A stretch of 64,000 bases of DNA. It comes from Patescibacteria group bacterium (GTDB lineage Bacteria > Patescibacteriota > Minisyncoccia > Phycocordibacterales > GCA-2747955). The translations under genes and the position numbers were made by a program. The DNA lies in contig JBLYPV010000001.1 in assembly GCA_048538215.1 (NCBI GenBank), forward strand, positions 333,499-397,498. Direction: 5' to 3'. Positions 2,363 through 58,085 of this stretch are shown here, piece after piece. Numbering within the stretch: the first letter of the stretch is position 1; each line of letters starts with the position of its first letter. The notes below the pieces were generated by a model, which was not told where the DNA came from, ran no database searches, and saw nothing but the letters and a program-made list of their open reading frames with translations.

Positions 2363-2537
2363 ATATTATTGCGTCTACTTAGTCGTCATCCCGCGGCCCA
2401 AGAAAATGACACTAATGTGTGTCATCCTGGGGACTTGCAGATACGAGGCGGCAGCCAAAGTATCTGCAAGTAACCCGGGATCAAAATAATTATAATCTCT
2501 TTTTCTAAATCATTATACAGTATCTTGAAAATATCAA

Positions 2538-3644
2538 TTAATCCAAGTGATTTTGCTCTGTTATGTATCTATCCAAAATTGTATTAATCAAGTTAAAACT
2601 ATTTGCATGACTAAAATGTCCTAAATAAGACTGCACCATGGGTTCGTTTGCATCACATGCAATACCTCTTCCCGAGTTTGTTTCAAATTGGTATAGTTTC
2701 TTTTTAAATCTTTTTACCACCTTTTGTCGTACCAATGTGTGAGTAGGCTTGAGATAATACCCCAAAAAATCGATTCCATTTTTTGTACATTGCAACTTAG
2801 TTTTATCTTCGCACAACCTTAGTTTCAGATTTCTTTTCAAAAATTGATTTATAAGGCTGATTGAATGAGCTAGTTTTTCATAATCTTCATCAAGTATTAC
2901 AAAATCATCTACATATCTTACATAACGATTAAAACCAAGATCTTCTTCAATAAAATAATCTAATTCATGTAAATAAACATTGGCAAAAAACTGACTAGTC
3001 AGGTTTCCAATTGGTAGACCTTTGTTTTGATTTCCCCATAAGAGTGATTTTTCTTGAGGTAATAGATCCTTTGTCCCCGTATGACCTTTAAAAATATAAT
3101 TACCTGCAGGATTATGAAACACTATCTTTCTAGCAATCCACGAAACTTCTTCTTTCCAAGTACTACCAGCCGCACTATCGTTAATACGCTTCTCTATTAA
3201 TTGCCATAGTATTTCTTTGTCTATACTACGAAAAAAACTTGTAATATCTAACTTTACATAATAAAGTCTCTTGCCATCAATACCGCCTCGTATTGTGTAC
3301 CACCGCAATTTTTTGACTGCCTTATGAGTACCCTTGCCTTTTCGGTTTGCGTATGAACTATCCAAAAAATTCTGTTCAAACAACATCTCAATTTCATTGC
3401 ACAATAAATGATGCACAATACGGTCTCGAAAATGAGCAGCGAATACTTCCCGTGGCGAAGGCTCGGTAACAATAAAGCAAACGTGTCTTGATATTTTATA
3501 TTTCCGACTCTTCAAATCAGCCAAGAGCGCACAGAGATTCTCCTCTCGCTTTATCTCAAATTTGCACACATTAACAGTATTCTTCTTGTGCTTTAAACAA
3601 TCTTGATACGCTTTGTATAATTTTTCAAAAGTAAATATTGTCAT
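2538..3644 (-). CDS. diversity-generating retroelement reverse transcriptase
   Basis: DGR-RT motifs are present: 'FIVTEPSPREVFAAHFRDRIVHHLL', 'NRKGKGTH', 'VKLDITSFFRSI', 'GLPIGNLTSQFFANVYL', and the YxDD box 'YVRYVDDFVIL'. The track ORF extends to 3728, but that extension overlaps the TR. The probable start is the ATG at 3642-3644 ('MTIFTFEKLY'). Confidence 0.9.
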   Translation of the reverse strand: MTIFTFEKLYKAYQDCLKHKKNTVNVCKFEIKREENLCALLADLKSRKYKISRHVCFIVTEPSPREVFAAHFRDRIVHHLLCNEIEMLFEQNFLDSSYANRKGKGTHKAVKKLRWYTIRGGIDGKRLYYVKLDITSFFRSIDKEILWQLIEKRINDSAAGSTWKEEVSWIARKIVFHNPAGNYIFKGHTGTKDLLPQEKSLLWGNQNKGLPIGNLTSQFFANVYLHELDYFIEEDLGFNRYVRYVDDFVILDEDYEKLAHSISLINQFLKRNLKLRLCEDKTKLQCTKNGIDFLGYYLKPTHTLVRQKVVKRFKKKLYQFETNSGRGIACDANEPMVQSYLGHFSHANSFNLINTILDRYITEQNHLD

Positions 3645-3687
3645 AGCAGTGTCTTCAATCAAGCAAAGAACGTCAAAATAAAAAGTA

Positions 3688-3828
3688 CTAGTGGACGCAA
3701 CGAACATAATTGCCATTGCTCTTATCATTCCGGTTCACATTGCCGTTATTGAGGTTCGTTTGATATGCGTTCGTGGGCGCAGACGGCGACTCGACAGACG
3801 ACCAGTAATTGCTCGCCGTAAAGCCTGC
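3688..3828 (-). repeat. DGR template repeat (TR), 141 bp
   Basis: Gap-free match to 4478-4618 with 10 mismatches. At every mismatch the TR has T on the + strand, which is A on the coding strand. It lies 44 nt upstream of the RT start. Confidence 0.9.
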
Positions 3829-3957: not shown

Positions 3958-4317
3958 CTACTTTTTTTGTAGAAATTTCTTCCAATTCTTCGCTTGATTC
4001 AAGGCACTAACCACATTCTCTACTACAAAGGCATAGGCCTTCTTATTACCCAATTGTTCCAATTCATTGGCCACACGAGTGTATATCAACAACTTATTCA
4101 TCTCATTTTGTATAGCTGCTACATATTCTATTCTTTGGCTCTTGTCTCGACAATCACTAGCCTGATGTACCAACAACAAAGCATCTATAGGACATTCCAG
4201 CATCTTCTCTCCCAGCATATATTTATACTGTTTTGAAAATTTAGGAACTCTTTGATACAGATCCTTGAGTATAGACATGATGTCGTTATAAATAGGAAGT
4301 TCCGAGTGTGAAGCCAT
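3958..4317 (-). CDS. avd: DGR accessory variability determinant (Avd-like four-helix-bundle protein)
   Basis: About 119 aa between target and TR. 'ELPIYNDIMSILKDLYQRVPKFSKQY...IEYVAAIQNEMNKLL' fits the Avd / 23S-rRNA-IVS four-helix-bundle family. The track ORF runs to 4389. The start is chosen at the ATG with an upstream AAGG. Confidence 0.65.
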   Translation of the reverse strand: MASHSELPIYNDIMSILKDLYQRVPKFSKQYKYMLGEKMLECPIDALLLVHQASDCRDKSQRIEYVAAIQNEMNKLLIYTRVANELEQLGNKKAYAFVVENVVSALNQAKNWKKFLQKK

Positions 4318-4414
4318 AAATATTAATACCTTACTTATACTGGGCTCTCGATACATATTTGGCTGTCGCCAAATTATGTACGAGAGCATGCGAAAATGTG
4401 TAATGACGGGTCAG

Positions 4415-4461
4415 TAGATTCCTCTCAGGCAGTCCCTGCGGGACTGCCTGAGAGGAATCTA
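4415..4461 (-). promoter_or_regulatory. perfect 22-bp-stem / 3-nt-loop hairpin (cruciform) immediately 3' of the VR
   Basis: 'tagattcctctcaggcagtccc-tgc-gggactgcctgagaggaatcta' lies about 16 nt beyond the target stop. It is absent next to the TR. It is in the position of the hairpin/cruciform that DGR target recognition needs. Confidence 0.75.
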
Positions 4462-4477
4462 GACCCTTTCCGAAATG

Positions 4478-4618
4478 CTAGTGGACGCAACGAACATAAT
4501 AGCCATTGCTCTTATCATACCGGTTCACAGTGCCGTTACCGAGGTGCGTAAGATATGCGTACGTGGGCGCAGACGGCGACTCGACAGACGACCAGTAATA
4601 GCTCGCCGTAAAGCCTGC
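4478..4618 (-). repeat. DGR variable repeat (VR) at the 3' end of the target gene
   Basis: 141-bp match to the TR covering the last 46 codons plus stop of ORF 4478..5122. Differs from the TR only at TR-adenine positions. Confidence 0.9.
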
Positions 4619-5122
4619 TGGTTTGGCGCTATCTATATCATATAGAGCTCGGAGCGCCGATGGTCCAGACAGGCGCTTGCCAGCACTCTGGCACGCACTG
4701 ACTGCGCTCGACCAATTCTGCGTGCCACCAGTATCTGCATCATCAAAGGTGAAGACACCGGTAGGATCAACAGCATAGTAGGTTTCATTGAGAGTTGCAG
4801 CCACGCCAAAGTCGATAGTGGCTAATTCGGCGCGGTAATCACTATAGGTATCAGTAGAGATCCAACAGGCAGCCCCGTCGCTCTTCTCATCCAAGGCTGT
4901 TACCATAGTTTGTACGTGGCTATCATTACAGAATCCTTCATAGGTTGAGTTGACACTATAGTAGACTGCTGCTTGGCGGTGGATGTTACTGAGAGATGAG
5001 CGGATACCAGCTTCTCTAGCATCCTCTCGTGCGCTGTTGAGTGAGGCCACGACTCCTAGTGAGAGAATACCAATGATAGCGATGACCACCAACAGTTCGA
5101 TGAGAGTAAATCCTTGCTTCAT
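4478..5122 (-). CDS. DGR target: type IV pilin-like protein with a C-terminal C-type-lectin-fold variable domain
   Basis: The N-terminus 'MKQGFTLIELLVVIAIIGIL' is a class III prepilin signal. The C-terminus '...NGYYVRCVH' resembles the CLec-fold VR terminus. The VR is embedded. The probable start is at 5120-5122, while the track ORF starts at an upstream TTG at 5200. Confidence 0.85.
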   Translation of the reverse strand: MKQGFTLIELLVVIAIIGILSLGVVASLNSAREDAREAGIRSSLSNIHRQAAVYYSVNSTYEGFCNDSHVQTMVTALDEKSDGAACWISTDTYSDYRAELATIDFGVAATLNETYYAVDPTGVFTFDDADTGGTQNWSSAVSACQSAGKRLSGPSALRALYDIDSAKPAGFTASYYWSSVESPSAPTYAYLTHLGNGTVNRYDKSNGYYVRCVH

Positions 5123-5348
5123 ATTCCTAATACTACCCCCCCCTGACAAAAAACAAGAGTCATCGTCCACATACATAAATTGGGCTGTTGGACAGCCCAA
5201 TTTTCAATTATAATTTTCAGAACCCGGGATCCAAGACTAGCCCTCGTACATTTAATTTAAAATATACGCTCGATTTACTTTTCTGGATCGCGCGATACCT
5301 CCCCTCACACACGAGACGTGTGAGGGGATTCCAGGATGACAATCCATA

Positions 5349-41109: not shown

Positions 41110-41550
41110 CTATCTTGGCAAGATCAAGCACCAGAATGTTACATTCCCAACAGTACACCGATTCCCCATTGAGGTATCCTCTGTGGCAAGAATATCTGCG
41201 GCAAGAATGACATTGTCTCGAGTAGGAGCATAAATATATCGTACACCAGAAAATCTGATGTTTTCTATAGAAATATAATCATCTATTAGCTGATAGAGAC
41301 ATAATTGTCCCTTATACATACGAAATGGCTCACAAAATGGCATATTATTGACCACTGCTGGATAGCTATCATTATTAATATAGTAGACACGCAAAGCTTT
41401 AGCTAAAGTGTACATTTGTTGTTGTGCTTGGGCTTCATGTGCCTGTGCACTATACTGATCAATTCCCTTAATCCACACCCCTACCAAAACTATGATAATG
41501 AGCACAATGAGAAGACTTTCTCCTATTCGTCGTGTTTGTTGTTTGGGCAT
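41110..41550 (-). CDS. hypothetical N-terminally membrane-anchored protein (possible pseudopilin-like)
   Basis: 'RRIGESLLIVLIIIVLVGVW' TM anchor. Not a canonical GFxxxE prepilin. Confidence 0.45.
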   Translation of the reverse strand: MPKQQTRRIGESLLIVLIIIVLVGVWIKGIDQYSAQAHEAQAQQQMYTLAKALRVYYINNDSYPAVVNNMPFCEPFRMYKGQLCLYQLIDDYISIENIRFSGVRYIYAPTRDNVILAADILATEDTSMGNRCTVGNVTFWCLILPR

Positions 41551-51365: not shown

Positions 51366-51770
51366 TTAATTTGGATTGCAGTCACCTAGTGTAGGAGCTG
51401 TACTACGTGGGCCCGCACTTTGCTGTGAAGCAACAAAATAATTGGCATTCACTTCTGCACTCAAAGGAGCGTATATACAAAAGGCATCGGTATTGCCTGT
51501 ATTATCTATAAACTCCACGCCAGTAGGCCACGTACTGAGATGATTTTGTAATCCAATAGCAGCTGATGAAGAGCTTGTATACCCAGGAAAATTTCCCGAG
51601 ATGTCTCGGTCAAGCTCCATAGCTTTCGCTGTTTCTTTTACACCAGTGATTTTGCTACTGTCGGTCGCTTGAGTACGACCTTGATTGAGATTAGTGAATA
51701 CCGTGAGGGCGAGAATCCCGATGATTGCAATCACCATCAAGAGCTCGATCAAGGTAAAAGCTTGTTTCAT
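51366..51770 (-). CDS. type IV pilin
   Basis: 'MKQAFTLIELLMVIAIIGILA' class III signal. The start is at the internal ATG. It sits between rpsJ and rplJ. Confidence 0.85.
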   Translation of the reverse strand: MKQAFTLIELLMVIAIIGILALTVFTNLNQGRTQATDSSKITGVKETAKAMELDRDISGNFPGYTSSSSAAIGLQNHLSTWPTGVEFIDNTGNTDAFCIYAPLSAEVNANYFVASQQSAGPRSTAPTLGDCNPN

Positions 51771-54470: not shown

Positions 54471-57400
54471 TTATTCAAGTACTACCATCTCTGCCCTAAA
54501 GGCGAGCTCATTGGCGTATTGAGTGTCTCCATCAAGTGTATCTACAAAATCTACTCCACTGACACCTGCAATATCTTCTAATTCACTGAAATAGCGCTTG
54601 ACCATTCGCTCTCCTGATTCGTCCATTTGCAAATGAAGATATATTTTATCTTTAGGAGAGCAATTTTTATCTTTACGCATATTTTGAATATGTCTGACAA
54701 ACTCTCGAAAATCGCCTTCTTCTTGTAATTCTGGAGTAAGCTCGGAATCAAGCACAACGGGAACATTTGTATTTTTGTCAAAATGTATTGCTTTTACATT
54801 AAGCTCCTCACGAATACTCTGCATCAGTGCTTCATTGATCACATCTGAAAGCATCGTACCTTCATCAGCATTATAGAGCTCATCACGCAAGGTAGCAGAT
54901 GCAAGTGGCTGTCGTACCTTAAGGCCAGCACTCACCCGCGCCTCAAGTCCGCGCGAAACAAGCTCTCTAACTCGTGCCATAACTGCAATACTTTCATAGG
55001 AAATACCCCGGGTAGTCGGCCAGAGCTCGAGGTGTACTGATTCATTCTCACCTGCCTCTCGTAGCTCTCGAAAGATATACTCTGCAGTAAAAGGCATAAA
55101 GGGGGCTATAATTTTTGAAAATTCTTTAAGCACAAAGTACGTAGTACGCTGAGCATTTGCAATATCCTCCCTATCCTTGCCCTTAAATCGAGATCGGCTA
55201 CGACGTATATACCAATTAGAAAAATCCTCTACAAAGTCGTAAAAGGGAGCGCATGCTCGATCAAGCTCATAAGCATCGAGGCCTCGTGTCGCCTGCTCTA
55301 ATACTTCTTCAAGTCGTGAGAGAATCCAGCGATCCAGTGGGTGGGGTGAATCAAATGGACTATGTGTAAAATCTATATTGTCATCTCGATATATTTGGAA
55401 AAAGCTTAAAGTATTTTTAAGTCGAATAACAATTTTTTTATTAACCTCATCGATATCTTTTTCTGAAAGATTGACACTTTCTCCGCGCAACACGGGACTA
55501 TTGAGTAAGAAGTATCGCAGTGCATCTGCACCATATCTATCAAAGACTAGATCAAGCTCAGGATAATTTTGTAGCTTCTTAGACATTTTTTTGCCATCTT
55601 CTGCCATTACAAAGCCTGTCACTATTACATTCTTCATTGGGGACTTCTCAAAAAGTCCTACCCCCAAAGCAAGCAAGCTATAAAACCATCCTCGGGTCTG
55701 ATCTATCGCCTCACAAATAAAATCTGCTGGATAAGCGAAATTATCAATGCGTGATTCTGGTGTATTCTCTCCTTGATAATATTTTGAAGCATAAGGCATT
55801 GAGCCGGATTCATACCAACAATCAAACACTTCGCCTATGAGCTTGTAAGGCTCACCTTTTTCATTTTTATAGCTTACCGCATCAAGATAGGGGCGATGCA
55901 GATCAAGCTCGAATTCATTATTGTGAGGAATAGGAGCAAAATCTAAGTAATATATTTCCTCTTTGCCTGCTTTCGCTTTTTGCTCCTCTCTATATTTTGC
56001 TAATTGCTCATTTGCTACTCCCTCTACTCCTGCTTGAGCAAGGTGTATCATATCGGGGTGTGTGATAAGCAGAATCGTAGCATTTTCATACTGCTCATCT
56101 AATTCATAGATCACTTCAGTAATTCTTTTTTTAGCTTCTCGATAATACTCACCCCCTTCTAAAACAGCATCATAACCCTCTTGGGAAATACCCGCTTGCT
56201 TTACTGCTTCTTTAAATTCCTGCTCTGATGTCCCCGACAAATCATCCCCCAAGTAGCGCTTACGCAAACGATTATCTTCTCGCACTTCTTTAACACTCAA
56301 GGCATTCTCAAGCATAAGGGCAGTTTGCTTGGTGCAATTATAGGGCGAGTGGGCAATCACATCGATTGCCTTTCGCTTATGCTCTCCAAGCATATGGCTA
56401 ATACGCTTGCTTGTATCCAGCACTTCATCTTTACCCCGCTCTGATAGCCGATCAGCTTCTGCACCCACTTCAAGTGACACAAGATTGGTACTGTCTGCCA
56501 CTGATTCTCCATGTGGAATGACAATAAAGTGATTATTAGATCTTAATTTCTCCTGTATCTCATGTATTGAGCCAAGAATCTCATACTCTCCTGTAGTTTG
56601 ATTCTCCCATACAGGAAGTGGTGCTCCCCAAAAGCGAGAACGAGATACCGCCCAATCTACATTATTAGCAATCCAATTATGAAATCTCTTGTGTCCGATG
56701 TGCTCTGGTACCCAGTGCATTGCGCTATTTTCTGCAAGCATTTTCTCTCGTAGCTTGGTGGTGGCTATAAACCAGCTTGAGGTAGCGTAATTGAGAAGTG
56801 GAGTGTCACAACGCCAGCAATGCGGATATGAATGCACTATTTTTTCTTTACTAAACAAGAGCCCGCGATGTGCTAAATATTTAATAACAGCAATATCAGC
56901 AGATTGGTGATCCTCTTTAGACTTGACCAACATCCCAGCAAAATCTACAACCTCTGGAACAAACTGCCCACTAGTGGTCACGTGATGAACCATAGGGATA
57001 TTTTGCTTTTGTGCTAGGTAATAATCATCAGCACCAAAGGCAGGAGCTTCGTGGGCGATTCCTGTACCAGATTCGTCATTTACAAAATCTGCTTCATATA
57101 CTTTCCAGCCATTCTCATGATGCTCGATTGATGTGTCTGTATAAAAGTAATCAAATGGAGGAATATATGATTTGCCCACCAAAGCATCACTTCCCAAAAC
57201 ACTCAGCTCTTCCCACTCGGGAATACCCGCTTGTTGCATCACCTCTTCTAAGCGTGATTGCGCGAGAATATACTGCTCTCTTGTGTCTTCTCGCATCACA
57301 GCGACCTTTACATAAATTACTTCGGGACCCACAGCAATTGCTGTATTTCCCGGTAGTGTCCATGGAGTGGTGGTCCAGGCTAGTAGATAGGTGCCGGGCT

Positions 57401-58085
57401 CGTCTTGTAATTCAAATTTGGCGGTCACTGAAATATCAGTGATATCTGCATACCCCTCGGCTACCTCATTATTTGAAAGTGTAGTCTCACATCGAGGACA
57501 CAAGTGCATCGGCTTATAGCCTTTGTAAACAAGCCCCTTTTTATCTAATTCTTTAAAGGCCCACCAGCAAGACTCAGTATAGAGGGGATCCATGGTTTTA
57601 TAATGATCCTCCATATCTACCCAGCGCCCGGTGCGAGGGATAATCTTCTCCCAAGAATCTTTGTAGGCCAATACCTGTGCTTGTGCAGCGGTATTAAAAT
57701 TAGCAATCCCATAATCAATGATCTCTTTGCGACTATTGAGATTAAGATTCTTTTCAATAATGTTTTCAATTGGTAGACCATGACAATCCCATCCCCATTT
57801 TCGTACTACATGATAGCCTTTCATTGTGTAGTAGCGTGGAATAACATCCTTGACTGTGCCTGGTAAAATATGACCATAGTGGGGCAAGCCCGTGGCAAAT
57901 GGAGGCCCGTCATAAAACACATACTCCCCCATCCCTTCTCTACGAGAAAGGGACTTTTTGAAAATATCTTCTTCCTGCCAGAATTTTAGTATGGCTTCTT
58001 CGTCTAAAGCTGTTTGAGATTTTTGTACCTCTTCACTTTGGCCTTTTAGTTTTGATTTTTGAGTTTTACTATGTATATCAGACAT
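54471..58085 (-). CDS. ileS: isoleucyl-tRNA synthetase carrying a roughly 180-aa histidine-phosphatase-like insertion
   Basis: 'PHYGH' HIGH motif, CP1 editing domain, 'WCISRSRFWGAPLPVW', and 'KMSKK'. It is 1204 aa against a usual 900-1050. Confidence 0.95.
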   Translation of the reverse strand: MSDIHSKTQKSKLKGQSEEVQKSQTALDEEAILKFWQEEDIFKKSLSRREGMGEYVFYDGPPFATGLPHYGHILPGTVKDVIPRYYTMKGYHVVRKWGWDCHGLPIENIIEKNLNLNSRKEIIDYGIANFNTAAQAQVLAYKDSWEKIIPRTGRWVDMEDHYKTMDPLYTESCWWAFKELDKKGLVYKGYKPMHLCPRCETTLSNNEVAEGYADITDISVTAKFELQDEPGTYLLAWTTTPWTLPGNTAIAVGPEVIYVKVAVMREDTREQYILAQSRLEEVMQQAGIPEWEELSVLGSDALVGKSYIPPFDYFYTDTSIEHHENGWKVYEADFVNDESGTGIAHEAPAFGADDYYLAQKQNIPMVHHVTTSGQFVPEVVDFAGMLVKSKEDHQSADIAVIKYLAHRGLLFSKEKIVHSYPHCWRCDTPLLNYATSSWFIATTKLREKMLAENSAMHWVPEHIGHKRFHNWIANNVDWAVSRSRFWGAPLPVWENQTTGEYEILGSIHEIQEKLRSNNHFIVIPHGESVADSTNLVSLEVGAEADRLSERGKDEVLDTSKRISHMLGEHKRKAIDVIAHSPYNCTKQTALMLENALSVKEVREDNRLRKRYLGDDLSGTSEQEFKEAVKQAGISQEGYDAVLEGGEYYREAKKRITEVIYELDEQYENATILLITHPDMIHLAQAGVEGVANEQLAKYREEQKAKAGKEEIYYLDFAPIPHNNEFELDLHRPYLDAVSYKNEKGEPYKLIGEVFDCWYESGSMPYASKYYQGENTPESRIDNFAYPADFICEAIDQTRGWFYSLLALGVGLFEKSPMKNVIVTGFVMAEDGKKMSKKLQNYPELDLVFDRYGADALRYFLLNSPVLRGESVNLSEKDIDEVNKKIVIRLKNTLSFFQIYRDDNIDFTHSPFDSPHPLDRWILSRLEEVLEQATRGLDAYELDRACAPFYDFVEDFSNWYIRRSRSRFKGKDREDIANAQRTTYFVLKEFSKIIAPFMPFTAEYIFRELREAGENESVHLELWPTTRGISYESIAVMARVRELVSRGLEARVSAGLKVRQPLASATLRDELYNADEGTMLSDVINEALMQSIREELNVKAIHFDKNTNVPVVLDSELTPELQEEGDFREFVRHIQNMRKDKNCSPKDKIYLHLQMDESGERMVKRYFSELEDIAGVSGVDFVDTLDGDTQYANELAFRAEMVVLE

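What the first reader, a model, noticed from the sequence alone, without database searches (positions are those of the whole stretch)
4478..5122. The DGR target is a type IV pilin-like protein with a C-terminal lectin-fold VR
The target begins with a canonical class III prepilin signal (MKQGFTLIELLVVIAIIGIL). It ends with a VR encoding '...NGYYVRCVH', the CLec-fold terminus seen in DGR variable proteins. This makes it a surface-exposed pilus subunit or adhesin whose ligand-binding face is hypermutated at eight Asn-templated positions. If this is a reduced-genome episymbiont, a diversifying pilin could tune host attachment or DNA uptake. Two further pilin-like genes (41110..41550 and 51366..51770) are not targets.
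Basis: partly seen in the sequence, partly recalled or inferred. Interest (0 to 1): 0.8.

Follow-up and report, generated by a model that had tools for sequence, protein, structure and literature searches.

The report
Retroelement-diversified lectin-headed type IV pilin
A tiny-genome (Patescibacteria) bacterium uses a diversity-generating retroelement to rewrite the sugar-binding-type head of a pilus subunit, giving a concrete candidate for how such episymbionts vary what they stick to.

Summary
On the minus strand lies a complete DGR cassette: target 4478-5122, hairpin 4408-4466, avd 3958-4389, TR 3688-3828, RT 2538-3644/3728. VR (4478-4618) and TR differ at 10 of 141 bases, all at TR adenines (P about 8e-7). 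This changes 8 codons: 7 Asn and 1 Gln, not 8 Asn.

The same genome (a 622,806-nt Patescibacteria MAG contig) holds a second copy outside the window. It is identical except at 9 residues, all at TR-adenine codons.

Related RTs (63-70% identity) sit in the same pilin-avd-TR-RT cassette. Other relatives diversify Lcl_C heads on ordinary membrane anchors.

No pilus assembly genes lie in the window. Surface exposure of the variable residues is inferred, not measured.

Extra finding: every DGR locus of this clade examined carries a G/C homopolymer of 8 or more bases upstream of the target gene or operon, which suggests phase variation.

Verdict: a real, probably active DGR with a little-described target type. 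Interest is moderate to high.

The parts
4478..5122 (-). DGR target gene: a modular type IV pilin (214 aa). The leader is MKQG, the mature N-terminus is FTLIE, the pilin module is residues 1-~130 and the CLec (Lcl_C/DUF1566) head is residues 131-214.
   Evidence: identical to NCBI MFW0871183.1
4478..4618 (-). Variable repeat (VR): 141 nt, codons 169-214 plus the stop codon
   Evidence: 10 mismatches to the TR, all at TR adenines, P about 8e-7
4408..4466 (-). Perfect 22-bp hairpin (arms 4415-4436 and 4440-4461, loop GCA) extended by an outer GGGTC/GACCC stem. It starts 11 nt after the VR stop codon. Probable DGR target-recognition hairpin/cruciform.
   Evidence: dG -30.9 kcal/mol, z -10.6; no T-run follows. 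A shorter version sits at the same place in L085 and L083, with a compensatory change in the outer stem. Functional precedent: PMC3240598.
3958..4389 (-). avd (accessory variability determinant), 143 aa
   Evidence: Pfam bAvd 30.6 bits and NCBIfam DivGenRetAVD 34.4 bits, both below their curated cut-offs. Same position as the bAvd genes in related cassettes.
3688..3828 (-). Template repeat (TR). It holds 10 AAY codons and 1 CAA codon at the diversified positions. It lies about 44 nt upstream of the probable RT start.
2538..3728 (-). DGR reverse transcriptase. The longest ORF is 396 aa. The probable start is the ATG at 3644 (MTIFTFEK), judged from the 357-aa homologues. It carries the IGNLTSQ and YVDD motifs.
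   Evidence: RVT_1 65.7 bits; sequence; homologues; identical to MFW0871181.1
5136..5143 (-). G8 homopolymer on the gene strand, 14-21 nt upstream of the ATG and abutting a -10-like TAGTAT (5130-5135). Candidate slipped-strand phase-variation tract.
   Evidence: It is the only G/C run of 8 or more in the 64-kb window. Equivalent tracts lie upstream of the target gene or operon in all six related DGR loci.
2472..2485 (.). 14-nt direct repeat AACCCGGGATCAAA. Its partner is at 5221-5234 (13/14 match). The pair brackets the whole cassette. Significance uncertain.
   Evidence: My own rough estimate puts the chance expectation for such a pair in 2.9 kb near 0.7, so it may be coincidence.

Best explanation
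This is a chromosomal, probably active diversity-generating retroelement of a Patescibacteria (CPR) bacterium. Its variable protein is a modular type IV pilin.

Shown:
- The cassette order is target - hairpin - avd - TR - RT.
- VR and TR differ only at template adenines.
- The target carries a class III signal peptide (cleavage after Gly4, mature F1...E5).
- It has a predicted pilin fold.
- A C-terminal C-type-lectin-fold head of the Lcl_C/DUF1566 class carries all the diversified codons.

Inferred mechanism:
1. TR RNA is reverse-transcribed by the RT-Avd complex, with misincorporation opposite adenines.
2. The cDNA replaces the VR. It is directed there by the VR 3' junction (CTAG|CATT in the VR against CTAG|TACT in the TR) and by the downstream hairpin.
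3. This recodes 10 Asn (AAY) codons and 1 Gln codon. They lie at alternating positions of the last beta-hairpin of the lectin head.
4. By my arithmetic this allows roughly 15^10 x 5, about 10^12, possible heads.
5. A prepilin peptidase processes the protein. It is then presented on a type IV pilus (tip or shaft) or at the cell surface, where the variable face binds a ligand, most plausibly a glycan or protein on a host cell.

At least one further copy of the gene elsewhere in the genome is diversified by the same TR. A G8 tract in the promoter region may add on/off or level switching.
For: DGR identity:
- 10 of 10 mismatches fall at TR adenines.
- The RT has RVT_1 and the IGNLTSQ/YVDD motifs.
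- An Avd-like gene is present.
- A very stable hairpin follows the VR, as is required in the Bordetella phage DGR (PMC3240598).

Activity:
- The paralogue MFW0871135.1 lies on the same 622,806-nt contig.
- It is 100% identical over residues 1-174.
- It differs at 9 residues (175, 188, 191, 193, 195, 198, 200, 202, 208). Each is a TR AAY/CAA codon, and each change is reachable by changing adenines only.

Pilin module:
- N_methyl and TIGR02532 score above their cut-offs.
- The AF2 model has helix 7-58 and strands 83-126.
- A profile search hits Geobacter, Thermus, Myxococcus, Neisseria and S. sanguinis pilins.
- Many stand-alone 130-150-aa pilins match residues 1-130 only.

Lectin head:
- Lcl_C matches.
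- The CTLD WxxAxxxCxxxGxxL signature is present.

Variable face:
- Across 87 homologues the TR-adenine positions average 3.34 bits of entropy, against 1.92 for the other VR positions.
- These positions include the four most variable columns of the whole protein.
- They are interleaved with conserved Y/W/A/G/V/C scaffold residues.

Recurrence:
- The same pilin-avd-TR-RT cassette, with A-only or A-dominated mismatches (11/13, 24/24, 17/17), occurs in L085-87, L088 and L089-91.

Biological plausibility:
- Lectin-like minor pilins and type IV pili mediate host binding in cultivated Saccharibacteria (PMC11623550).
Against: - No pilB/pilC/pilD/pilM/pilT gene lies in the 64-kb window; every neighbour scanned is a housekeeping gene. 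The rest of the genome could not be read.
- Filament incorporation, surface exposure of the variable residues and ligand binding were not tested.
- The Lcl_C Pfam score is only 0.3 bits above its cut-off, and both Avd scores are below theirs.
- Sister cassettes of the same RT clade (L092-94) put the Lcl_C head on an ordinary TM/signal anchor. The N-terminal module may therefore serve only as a display anchor.
- The paralogue was seen only as a protein. Its DNA, its flanks and its distance from the target (inferred from accession numbers) were not verified.
- No read-level heterogeneity data were available.
Confidence: 0.75

Rival explanations
1. The protein is a surface-anchored variable receptor that uses the class III signal only as a membrane anchor or export signal. 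It would resemble the class III signal sugar-binding proteins of the Sulfolobus 'bindosome' (from my own knowledge of that system). It would not be a subunit polymerised into a pilus.
For: Related cassettes L092-94 carry Lcl_C heads on ordinary N-terminal TM/signal anchors followed by an AG(N/T)LTPPG motif. This shows the head is portable between display modules. No pilus machinery lies in the window.
Against: A complete pilin module is present: alpha1 helix, four-stranded sheet and conserved Glu5. It is homologous to stand-alone 130-150-aa pilins. Modular pilins with grafted binding modules are established filament subunits (PMC8179133).
Confidence: 0.15
2. The protein is a subunit of a competence (Com-type) pilus or pseudopilus used for DNA uptake rather than adhesion, and the variable head has no ligand-recognition role.
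For: There are weak N-terminal matches to ComGC, GspG and GspH models. CPR genomes commonly pair pilin-like genes with comEC/dprA (PMC9938205).
Against: All those matches cover only the N-terminal helix and lie far below their cut-offs (32.8 against 75 bits for ComGC). A hypervariable lectin-fold face is characteristic of ligand-binding DGR proteins and has no known role in DNA capture.
Confidence: 0.05
3. The cassette is an inactive relic, and the VR/TR differences are old. Alternatively it belongs to a prophage and encodes a receptor-binding protein.
For: Consensus assemblies of L085, L086 and L087 from three samples are identical, so no ongoing change was seen there. The cassette sits in different genomic contexts in different genomes, which hints at mobility.
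Against: The RT, avd, TR and hairpin are all intact. Mismatches are exclusively at adenines with no background drift. Two copies in one genome are identical except at the template-adenine codons. Flanking genes are housekeeping genes with no phage genes among them.
Confidence: 0.05

Closest known systems
Legionella pneumophila DGR and its LdtA target (CLec2/DUF1566 class, target category 'd' of Wu et al. 2018, PMC5758913)
   Same: Both have avd, TR and RT with A-to-N mutagenesis of the C-terminal DUF1566-type CLec domain of a surface protein. The VR ends in ...YVRC(V).
   Different: LdtA is exported as a lipoprotein to the outer membrane. Here the display module is a type IV prepilin signal plus a pilin fold, in a bacterium of a lineage regarded as lacking an outer membrane. 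The DGR hairpin has a 3-nt GCA loop and a 22+5-bp stem, not a 7-10-bp stem with a GRNA loop.
DGR-diversified Type V pilus tip adhesins of Bacteroides (bioRxiv 10.1101/2024.11.15.621889)
   Different: The pilus system is unrelated. Type V pilins are lipoprotein precursors assembled by strand exchange. Here the protein is a type IV pilin with a class III signal and an alpha1 helix. The host phylum and ecology also differ.
Modular type IV pilins such as Streptococcus sanguinis PilB (vWA module) and PilC (lectin module) (PMC8179133, PMC9934059), and the lectin-like minor pilins of Saccharibacteria (PMC11623550)
   Same: A small pilin module has a binding module grafted on its C-terminus. The published survey of modular pilins lists Candidatus (CPR) proteins, e.g. 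Magasanikbacteria and Falkowbacteria, among its representative architectures.
   Different: None of those modules is reported to be hypermutated. Here the module is the VR-bearing CLec head of a DGR.
Bordetella phage BPP-1 DGR (Mtd) and Treponema TvpA
   Same: The mechanism is mutagenic retrohoming with AAY-rich template codons, a hairpin 3' of VR and a CLec-fold scaffold.

Membership tests
Diversity-generating retroelement | TR/VR repeat pair whose differences fall at template adenines | tested here: met
   141-nt pair with 10 of 10 mismatches at TR adenines, P about 8e-7
Diversity-generating retroelement | Reverse transcriptase with the DGR-type motif 4 ([LIV]GxxxSQ) and catalytic YxDD, adjacent to the TR | tested here: met
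   RVT_1 65.7 bits; IGNLTSQ and YVDD are read in the translation. That these motifs are diagnostic of DGR RTs comes from my own knowledge of the DGR literature. No DGR-specific HMM was available.
Diversity-generating retroelement | Avd accessory protein | tested here: inconclusive
   bAvd 30.6 bits (cut-off 40) and DivGenRetAVD 34.4 bits (cut-off 80). Size, position and conservation in sister cassettes agree with Avd.
Diversity-generating retroelement | Target-site elements: a VR 3' junction that differs from the TR (IMH/IMH*) and a downstream hairpin | tested here: met
   Homology ends at CTAG. The VR continues CATT and the TR continues TACT, and this is conserved in the relatives. The hairpin is at 4408-4466, z -10.6. 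Function is inferred from PMC3240598.
Diversity-generating retroelement | Ongoing diversification | tested here: inconclusive
   Two copies in the genome differ only at template-adenine codons. No read-level or time-series data were available.
Type IV pilin (class III signal peptide proteins) | Short basic leader ending in Gly, Phe+1, Glu+5 and an N-terminus of about 20 hydrophobic residues | tested here: met
   MKQG|FTLIELLVVIAIIGILSLGVVA. N_methyl 32.1 bits (cut-off 21.2) and TIGR02532 34.7 bits (cut-off 16.3).
Type IV pilin (class III signal peptide proteins) | Pilin fold: a long alpha1 helix packed on an antiparallel beta-sheet | tested here: met
Type IV pilin (class III signal peptide proteins) | Prepilin peptidase and assembly machinery (PilD, PilB, PilC, PilM...) in the genome, and incorporation into a filament | not testable with these tools
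   None lies in the window. The rest of the 622,806-nt contig could not be fetched.
Lcl_C / DUF1566 C-type-lectin-fold domain (DGR 'CLec2' class) | Sequence match to PF07603 | tested here: met
   35.2 bits against a cut-off of 34.9 (marginal). Most of the 87 aligned homologues carry a precomputed PF07603 hit.
Lcl_C / DUF1566 C-type-lectin-fold domain (DGR 'CLec2' class) | CLec fold of the C-terminal domain | tested here: met
Lcl_C / DUF1566 C-type-lectin-fold domain (DGR 'CLec2' class) | Variable residues form a solvent-exposed face | not tested
   Only indirect evidence. The i, i+2 pattern (191/193/195 and 198/200/202) lies on predicted strands 188-193 and 199-203. Family entropy is very high at these positions, and conserved scaffold residues lie between them.
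Mtd/TvpA (FGE-sulfatase-type CLec) variable proteins | Closest structural similarity to the FGE-type CLec fold | tested here: not met

The most novel reading that the evidence does not exclude
Paceibacteria-type CPR bacteria may run a two-layer variation system on a host-recognition organelle. In the first layer, a DGR rewrites the lectin head of one or more type IV pilins, both in cis and at remote copies that keep the VR junction and hairpin. In the second layer, a G/C homopolymer of 8-12 bases in the promoter or leader of the same gene or operon switches its expression by slipped-strand mispairing. In the Nomurabacteria loci L089-91, the G8 tract sits inside the leader-peptide coding region and puts the pilin out of frame in three independent assemblies. 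If this reading is right, the pilin nature of many CPR DGR targets has been missed. One reason would be that gene starts are mis-called at these tracts. Another is that large surveys recorded only 'TM helix' or no domain.
Probability: 0.3. Interest if true: 0.8.

Novelty: new variant of a known kind. Interest (0 to 1): 0.6.

Why it matters
DGRs are unusually common in CPR bacteria, but reviews state that most of their targets remain uncharacterised (PMC8867640). The largest survey found that CPR-clade targets typically lack any recognisable transmembrane or conserved domain (PMC8144416).

This locus gives one abundant CPR DGR clade a concrete target: the lectin-fold head of a type IV pilin. 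In cultivated Saccharibacteria, type IV pili mediate host binding (PMC11623550).

That turns 'DGRs help episymbionts attach' into a testable statement. The variable residues are known, the display organelle is named, and the cis elements can be looked for in remote copies.

The associated homopolymer tracts, if phase-variable, would be a second and so far unreported layer of variation on the same gene.

Tried and rejected
- Genome scan. It was swamped by the N-terminal MKQGFTLI pattern and returned unrelated pilins from Elusimicrobia, Planctomycetes and others. Only L014 was a full-length relative, and the source genome was not retrieved.
- Metagenome scan. A scan with an N-terminally trimmed alignment found only two loci, L083 and L084.
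- Contig look-ups. Exact look-ups of P0001 and P0121 found nothing, so the paralogue's DNA and the pilus genes of the genome could not be examined.
- First reading of P0001. I first read it as an allele from a related strain. The exact look-up showed it is a second gene on the same contig, and I corrected the reading.
- Adjacency of the DGR. I considered that all orthologues might sit next to a DGR. This was rejected: P0002 lies between secY and adk, P0022 has no RT within 10 kb, and L083 lies next to dnaN. L083 does retain the VR junction and the hairpin, which is consistent with a remote target.
- Hairpin as a terminator. Rejected, because no T-run follows it and the scan found no terminator.
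- Promoter upstream of the target. The consensus scan found none. The -35/-10 reading around the G tract is my own and is weak.
- Literature. Paul et al. 2017 (Nat Microbiol) could not be read, so I cannot exclude that pilin-type CPR targets were already noted there. The supplement of Wu et al. 2018 is not held.
Full report
**What is there**

All parts lie on the minus strand of the first 5.2 kb of the window.

| Part | Coordinates | Note |
|---|---|---|
| Target gene | 4478-5122 | 214 aa; longest ORF reaches a TTG at 5200 |
| Intergenic hairpin | 4408-4466 | 59 nt |
| avd | 3958-4389 | 143 aa |
| TR | 3688-3828 | 141 nt |
| RT | 2538-3728 | longest ORF; probable start ATG 3644 |

- Flanking genes are housekeeping: an IMPACT/UPF0029 gene, class I aldolase, an EVE-domain protein and gyrB.
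- An exact-sequence look-up identifies the target as NCBI MFW0871183.1 and the RT as MFW0871181.1. Both lie on a 622,806-nt contig of a 'Patescibacteria group bacterium' MAG.

**Is it a DGR, and is the repeat more than chance?**

- VR (4478-4618) and TR (3688-3828) align without gaps over 141 nt, with 10 mismatches.
- All 10 mismatches are at TR adenines. With 38 A in 141 nt the hypergeometric probability is 7.7e-7.
- Eight codons differ. Seven are AAY Asn codons (residues 175, 188, 193, 195, 198, 202, 208) and one is CAA Gln (residue 191).
- The TR has ten AAY codons in all, so residues 196, 200 and 206 are also diversifiable.
- The RT has an RVT_1 domain (65.7 bits) and reads IGNLTSQ and YVDD. 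I know these as the DGR-type motif 4 and the catalytic motif.
- The Avd assignment rests on sub-threshold HMM scores plus position.
- Homology between VR and TR stops exactly at CTAG. The VR continues CATTTCGG and the TR continues TACTTTTT.

**The hairpin**

- It begins 11 nt after the VR stop codon. It has a 22-bp perfect inner stem, a GCA loop and an outer GGGTC/GACCC extension.
- Folded as DNA it gives -30.9 kcal/mol, z = -10.6 against shuffles.
- It is not followed by a T-run, so it is not an intrinsic terminator.
- A hairpin or cruciform 3' of VR is required for retrohoming in the Bordetella phage DGR and is reported as a conserved feature of DGR targets (PMC3240598).
- This one differs from that consensus, which is a 7-10-bp stem with a 4-nt GRNA loop.

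**Evidence of activity**

- The best database hit, P0001, is 96% identical.
- It has the same sequence for residues 1-174. It differs at nine residues: 175, 188, 191, 193, 195, 198, 200, 202 and 208.
- Each of these is an AAY or CAA codon in the TR, and each replacement is reachable by changing adenines only.
- I first took P0001 for a strain variant. The look-up shows it is MFW0871135.1, on the same contig, 48 accession numbers below the target.
- It is not in the window. Given the direction of the accession numbering, it must lie some 40 genes to the left of the window.
- The DGR therefore has at least two targets, one in cis and one remote. Both were diversified from the same TR after a very recent duplication or gene conversion.
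- This is the strongest available sign that the element works. It remains protein-level evidence, and I did not see the paralogue's DNA.

**The target protein, N-terminal half**

- MKQG|FTLIELLVVIAIIGILSLGVVA is a textbook class III signal: Gly-1, Phe+1, Glu+5.
- Pfam N_methyl and TIGR02532 both score above their cut-offs.
- An AlphaFold2 model built on 87 homologues is confident (pLDDT 90.6, pTM 0.82).
- The model shows a 52-residue helix (7-58), a short helix (68-80) and four strands (83-126).
- A profile of the family hits Geobacter, Thermus, Myxococcus, Neisseria and S. sanguinis pilins and GspG.
- In an exhaustive search of 1.84 billion representatives, many stand-alone 130-150-aa proteins match residues 1-~130 only. 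About 75 of the top 150 match full length, and 21 clusters score E <= 1e-30.
- The protein is thus a normal small pilin with an extra C-terminal module. That is a 'modular pilin' in the sense of Raynaud et al. (PMC8179133).

**The target protein, C-terminal half**

- Residues 131-213 match Pfam Lcl_C/DUF1566, just above threshold.
- Foldseek against the PDB gives the Legionella Lcl C-terminal domain (8q4e, E 2.6e-4) and the Bdellovibrio Bd2740 C-terminal domain. Dozens of animal C-type-lectin-like domains follow.
- A profile of the domain alone finds 8q4e (E 4e-5) and the CTLD helix signature WxxAxxxCxxxGxxL in DEC-205 and PLA2R.
- The class is DUF1566 ('CLec2', Legionella LdtA-like; PMC5758913), not the Mtd/TvpA type.
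- Cys144 and Cys212 are invariant in the 87 homologues. Cys65 and Cys86 are conserved in at least 90% of them. This suggests two disulfides; that is my inference.

**Are the variable residues on the surface?**

- I could not compute this, because model coordinates are not exposed to the scripting tool.
- The template-adenine codons fall on and between predicted strands 188-193 and 199-203, in an i, i+2 pattern (191/193/195 and 198/200/202).
- Across 87 homologues these positions average 3.34 bits of entropy, against 1.92 for the rest of the VR.
- They include the four most variable columns of the whole protein.
- The interleaved positions are conserved: Y176, W177, A189, Y190, G197, Y209, V210, R211 and C212.
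- In the Lcl structure, conserved DUF1566 residues are reported to be largely in the core (PMC11162425).
- This fits one exposed face of a beta-hairpin, but it is an inference.

**Surroundings**

- I scanned 38 ORFs of the window against Pfam. The DGR genes and the two other pilin-like ORFs are described above.
- The rest are almost all housekeeping. They include ribosomal proteins, EF-Tu, aminoacyl-tRNA synthetases, topoisomerase I, DnaE, MreB, folate enzymes and a C5 methylase. Three ORFs had no family match.
- Of the two other 'pilin-like' ORFs, 51366-51770 is a real prepilin-type ORF and 41110-41550 is not convincing. Neither has TR homology.

**Relatives**

RT homologues are very numerous: 7,780 at E <= 1e-30 among the scored candidates. 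The few that carry a source name are called Patescibacteria, Paceibacterota, Pacebacteria or Nomurabacteria, apart from one partial Bacteriovoracia entry. I looked at six of them.

| Loci | RT identity | Cassette | TR/VR mismatches at adenines |
|---|---|---|---|
| L085-87 | 70% | N_methyl target, bAvd, TR, RT | 11 of 13 |
| L088 | 63% | N_methyl + Lcl_C target, bAvd, TR, RT | 24 of 24 |
| L089-91 (Nomurabacteria) | 63% | Lcl_C target with pilin N-terminus, bAvd, TR, RT | 17 of 17 |
| L092-94 | 53-63% | Lcl_C head on an ordinary TM/signal anchor, then an AG(N/T)LTPPG motif | not measured |

- The targets in L092-94 lie downstream of a PG_binding_1 or Big_4 gene.
- The clade therefore diversifies one kind of head on at least two kinds of display module.
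- Conversely, close orthologues of the pilin occur without an RT within 6-10 kb: next to secY/adk, dnaN and dnaE.
- L083 keeps both the CTAG|CATT junction and a hairpin TAGATTTC-GCA-GAAATCTA at the same distance.
- The outer stem is GGGAC/GTCCC in L085, against GGGTC/GACCC in the window. This is a compensatory change.
- That is what a remote target should look like.

**Mechanism: shown against inferred**

- Shown: the cassette anatomy, the adenine-specific differences, two diversified copies, the prepilin signal, the predicted pilin and CLec folds, and recurrence of the cassette.
- Inferred from the Bordetella and Legionella paradigms: TR RNA is copied by RT-Avd with adenine mis-incorporation. 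The cDNA then replaces the VR, guided by the 3' junction and the hairpin.
- Inferred from pilin biology: cleavage by a prepilin peptidase and display on a type IV pilus, or at least at the cell surface.
- Inferred from the fold and from host-binding lectin-like minor pilins in Saccharibacteria (PMC11623550): the ligand is a host surface glycan or protein.
- The main rival is that the class III signal merely anchors a surface receptor that is never polymerised. The TM-anchored sister targets give this some weight. The complete pilin fold and conserved Glu5 argue against it.

**Comparison with the literature**

- DGRs in CPR are known, and DUF1566 heads are a known VR class.
- DGR-diversified Type V pilus tips were recently described in Bacteroides.
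- Modular type IV pilins are known.
- For DGRs acting on type IV pilins I found only a passing list entry, 'GspG-type pilin', among 'scarcely represented' VR-holding domains (PMC11661182).
- No paper in the library holds both 'diversity-generating' and 'prepilin' in this sense.
- The stored part of the target table of Roux et al. has 338 PF07603 entries and no PF07963 or 'pilin'.
- That paper states that CPR-clade targets typically lack recognisable TM or conserved domains.
- Paul et al. 2017 could not be read, so prior mention there cannot be excluded.
- I therefore rate this a new variant of a known kind.

**An unplanned observation: homopolymer tracts**

- The only G/C homopolymer of 8 or more bases in the 64-kb window is 5136-5143, G8 on the gene strand.
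- It lies 14-21 nt upstream of the ATG and directly abuts a -10-like TAGTAT. That hexamer is conserved, with the same 7-nt spacing to the ATG, in orthologue L001.
- Each of the six independent related DGR loci also has a tract of 8-12 G or C upstream of the target gene or its operon.
- Expected numbers are 0.008-0.07 per locus. In contrast, 1.2 Mb of unrelated loci hold only 7 such tracts against 34 expected.
- In L089-91 a G8 tract lies inside the leader-peptide coding region and separates the ATG frame from the GFTLIEL frame.
- This is so in three assemblies from three different samples. The public gene calls there start inside the alpha1 helix.
- The pattern looks like slipped-strand phase variation, but I saw no length polymorphism: L085, L086 and L087 are identical.
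- Homopolymer sequencing error also cannot be excluded.
- No paper among the twelve listed for the search combined phase variation or homopolymeric tracts with Patescibacteria.

**Verdict**

- The element is an ordinary DGR mechanistically.
- Its target, a lectin-headed type IV pilin present in at least two diversified copies, is an under-described target type. It gives CPR DGR biology a concrete, testable handle.
- Interest 0.6.

Noticed in passing
window 5136-5143; L084 4395-4402; L085 3241-3249; L088 3109-3117; L089 1974-1983, 3124-3131, 3280-3289, 3371-3378; L092 1431-1440; L093 1328-1336; L094 743-754: A G/C homopolymer of 8-12 bases lies upstream of the DGR target gene or its operon in the window and in all six related DGR loci. 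It is the only such run in the 64-kb window. Expected numbers are 0.008-0.07 per locus, and such runs are rare in 1.2 Mb of unrelated loci. This suggests slipped-strand phase variation layered on DGR variation. No length polymorphism was seen.
   Followed up: partly
outside the window, about 40 genes to the left on the same contig (protein MFW0871135.1 = P0001): A second copy of the pilin gene lies in the same genome. It is identical over residues 1-174 and differs from the window copy at 9 residues, all at TR-adenine codons. It is probably a remote second target of the same DGR. Its DNA and flanks were not seen.
   Followed up: partly
L089/L090/L091 3330-3400: In three Nomurabacteria assemblies from three different samples, the DGR-target pilin's ATG (MKSKKYKINKNICGGG...) is out of frame with GFTLIEL because of a G8 tract in the leader-coding region; nine G would restore the frame. 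Public gene calls start inside the alpha1 helix, which hides the prepilin motif.
   Followed up: partly
window 4408-4466; L085 3934-3962; L083 628-656: The hairpin 3' of VR is conserved in position. It shares a TAGATT...AATCTA core and a 3-nt loop (GCA in the window and L083, GTA in L085). The outer stem shows a compensatory change. The window version has a 14-bp expansion of the stem. The hairpin is also present in L083, which has no RT nearby.
   Followed up: partly
window 2472-2485 and 5221-5234: A 14-nt direct repeat (AACCCGGGATCAAA / AACCCGGGATCCAA) brackets the whole DGR cassette, promoter included. The cassette sits in different genomic contexts in different genomes. The repeat could be an insertion footprint or chance; my rough expectation for such a pair is about 0.7.
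   Followed up: no
L092 2321-3244; L093 2572-3228; L094 1851-2795: Sister DGR cassettes carry Lcl_C targets with an N-terminal TM/signal segment followed by a conserved A-G-(N/T)-L-T-P-(P/T)-G motif. Each lies downstream of a PG_binding_1 or Big_4 gene. This may be an unrecognised CPR surface-anchoring signal.
   Followed up: no
L089 1609-3037 and 3397-6074; L090 and L091 6462-8172: Two DGR cassettes lie side by side in the Nomurabacteria contigs. One of them has a divergent avd/RT pair with a G10 tract between the two genes. In two of the three assemblies (L090, L091) a large serine recombinase gene lies just downstream of the second RT.
   Followed up: no
window 54471-58085: A class I aminoacyl-tRNA synthetase ORF of 1204 aa (tRNA-synt_1 plus Anticodon_1) carries a histidine-phosphatase (His_Phos_1) domain at residues 547-698, within the span of the tRNA-synt_1 match. 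This is an unusual domain insertion.
   Followed up: no
It has only sub-threshold T2SSG/GspG similarity, so its pilin status is doubtful.
   Followed up: partly
window 5123-5135; L001, L084, L088 upstream of the pilin ATG: A -10-like hexamer (TAGTAT or TATAAT) lies only 6-8 nt upstream of the ATG of these pilin genes in several genomes. This hints at leaderless or nearly leaderless transcripts.
   Followed up: no
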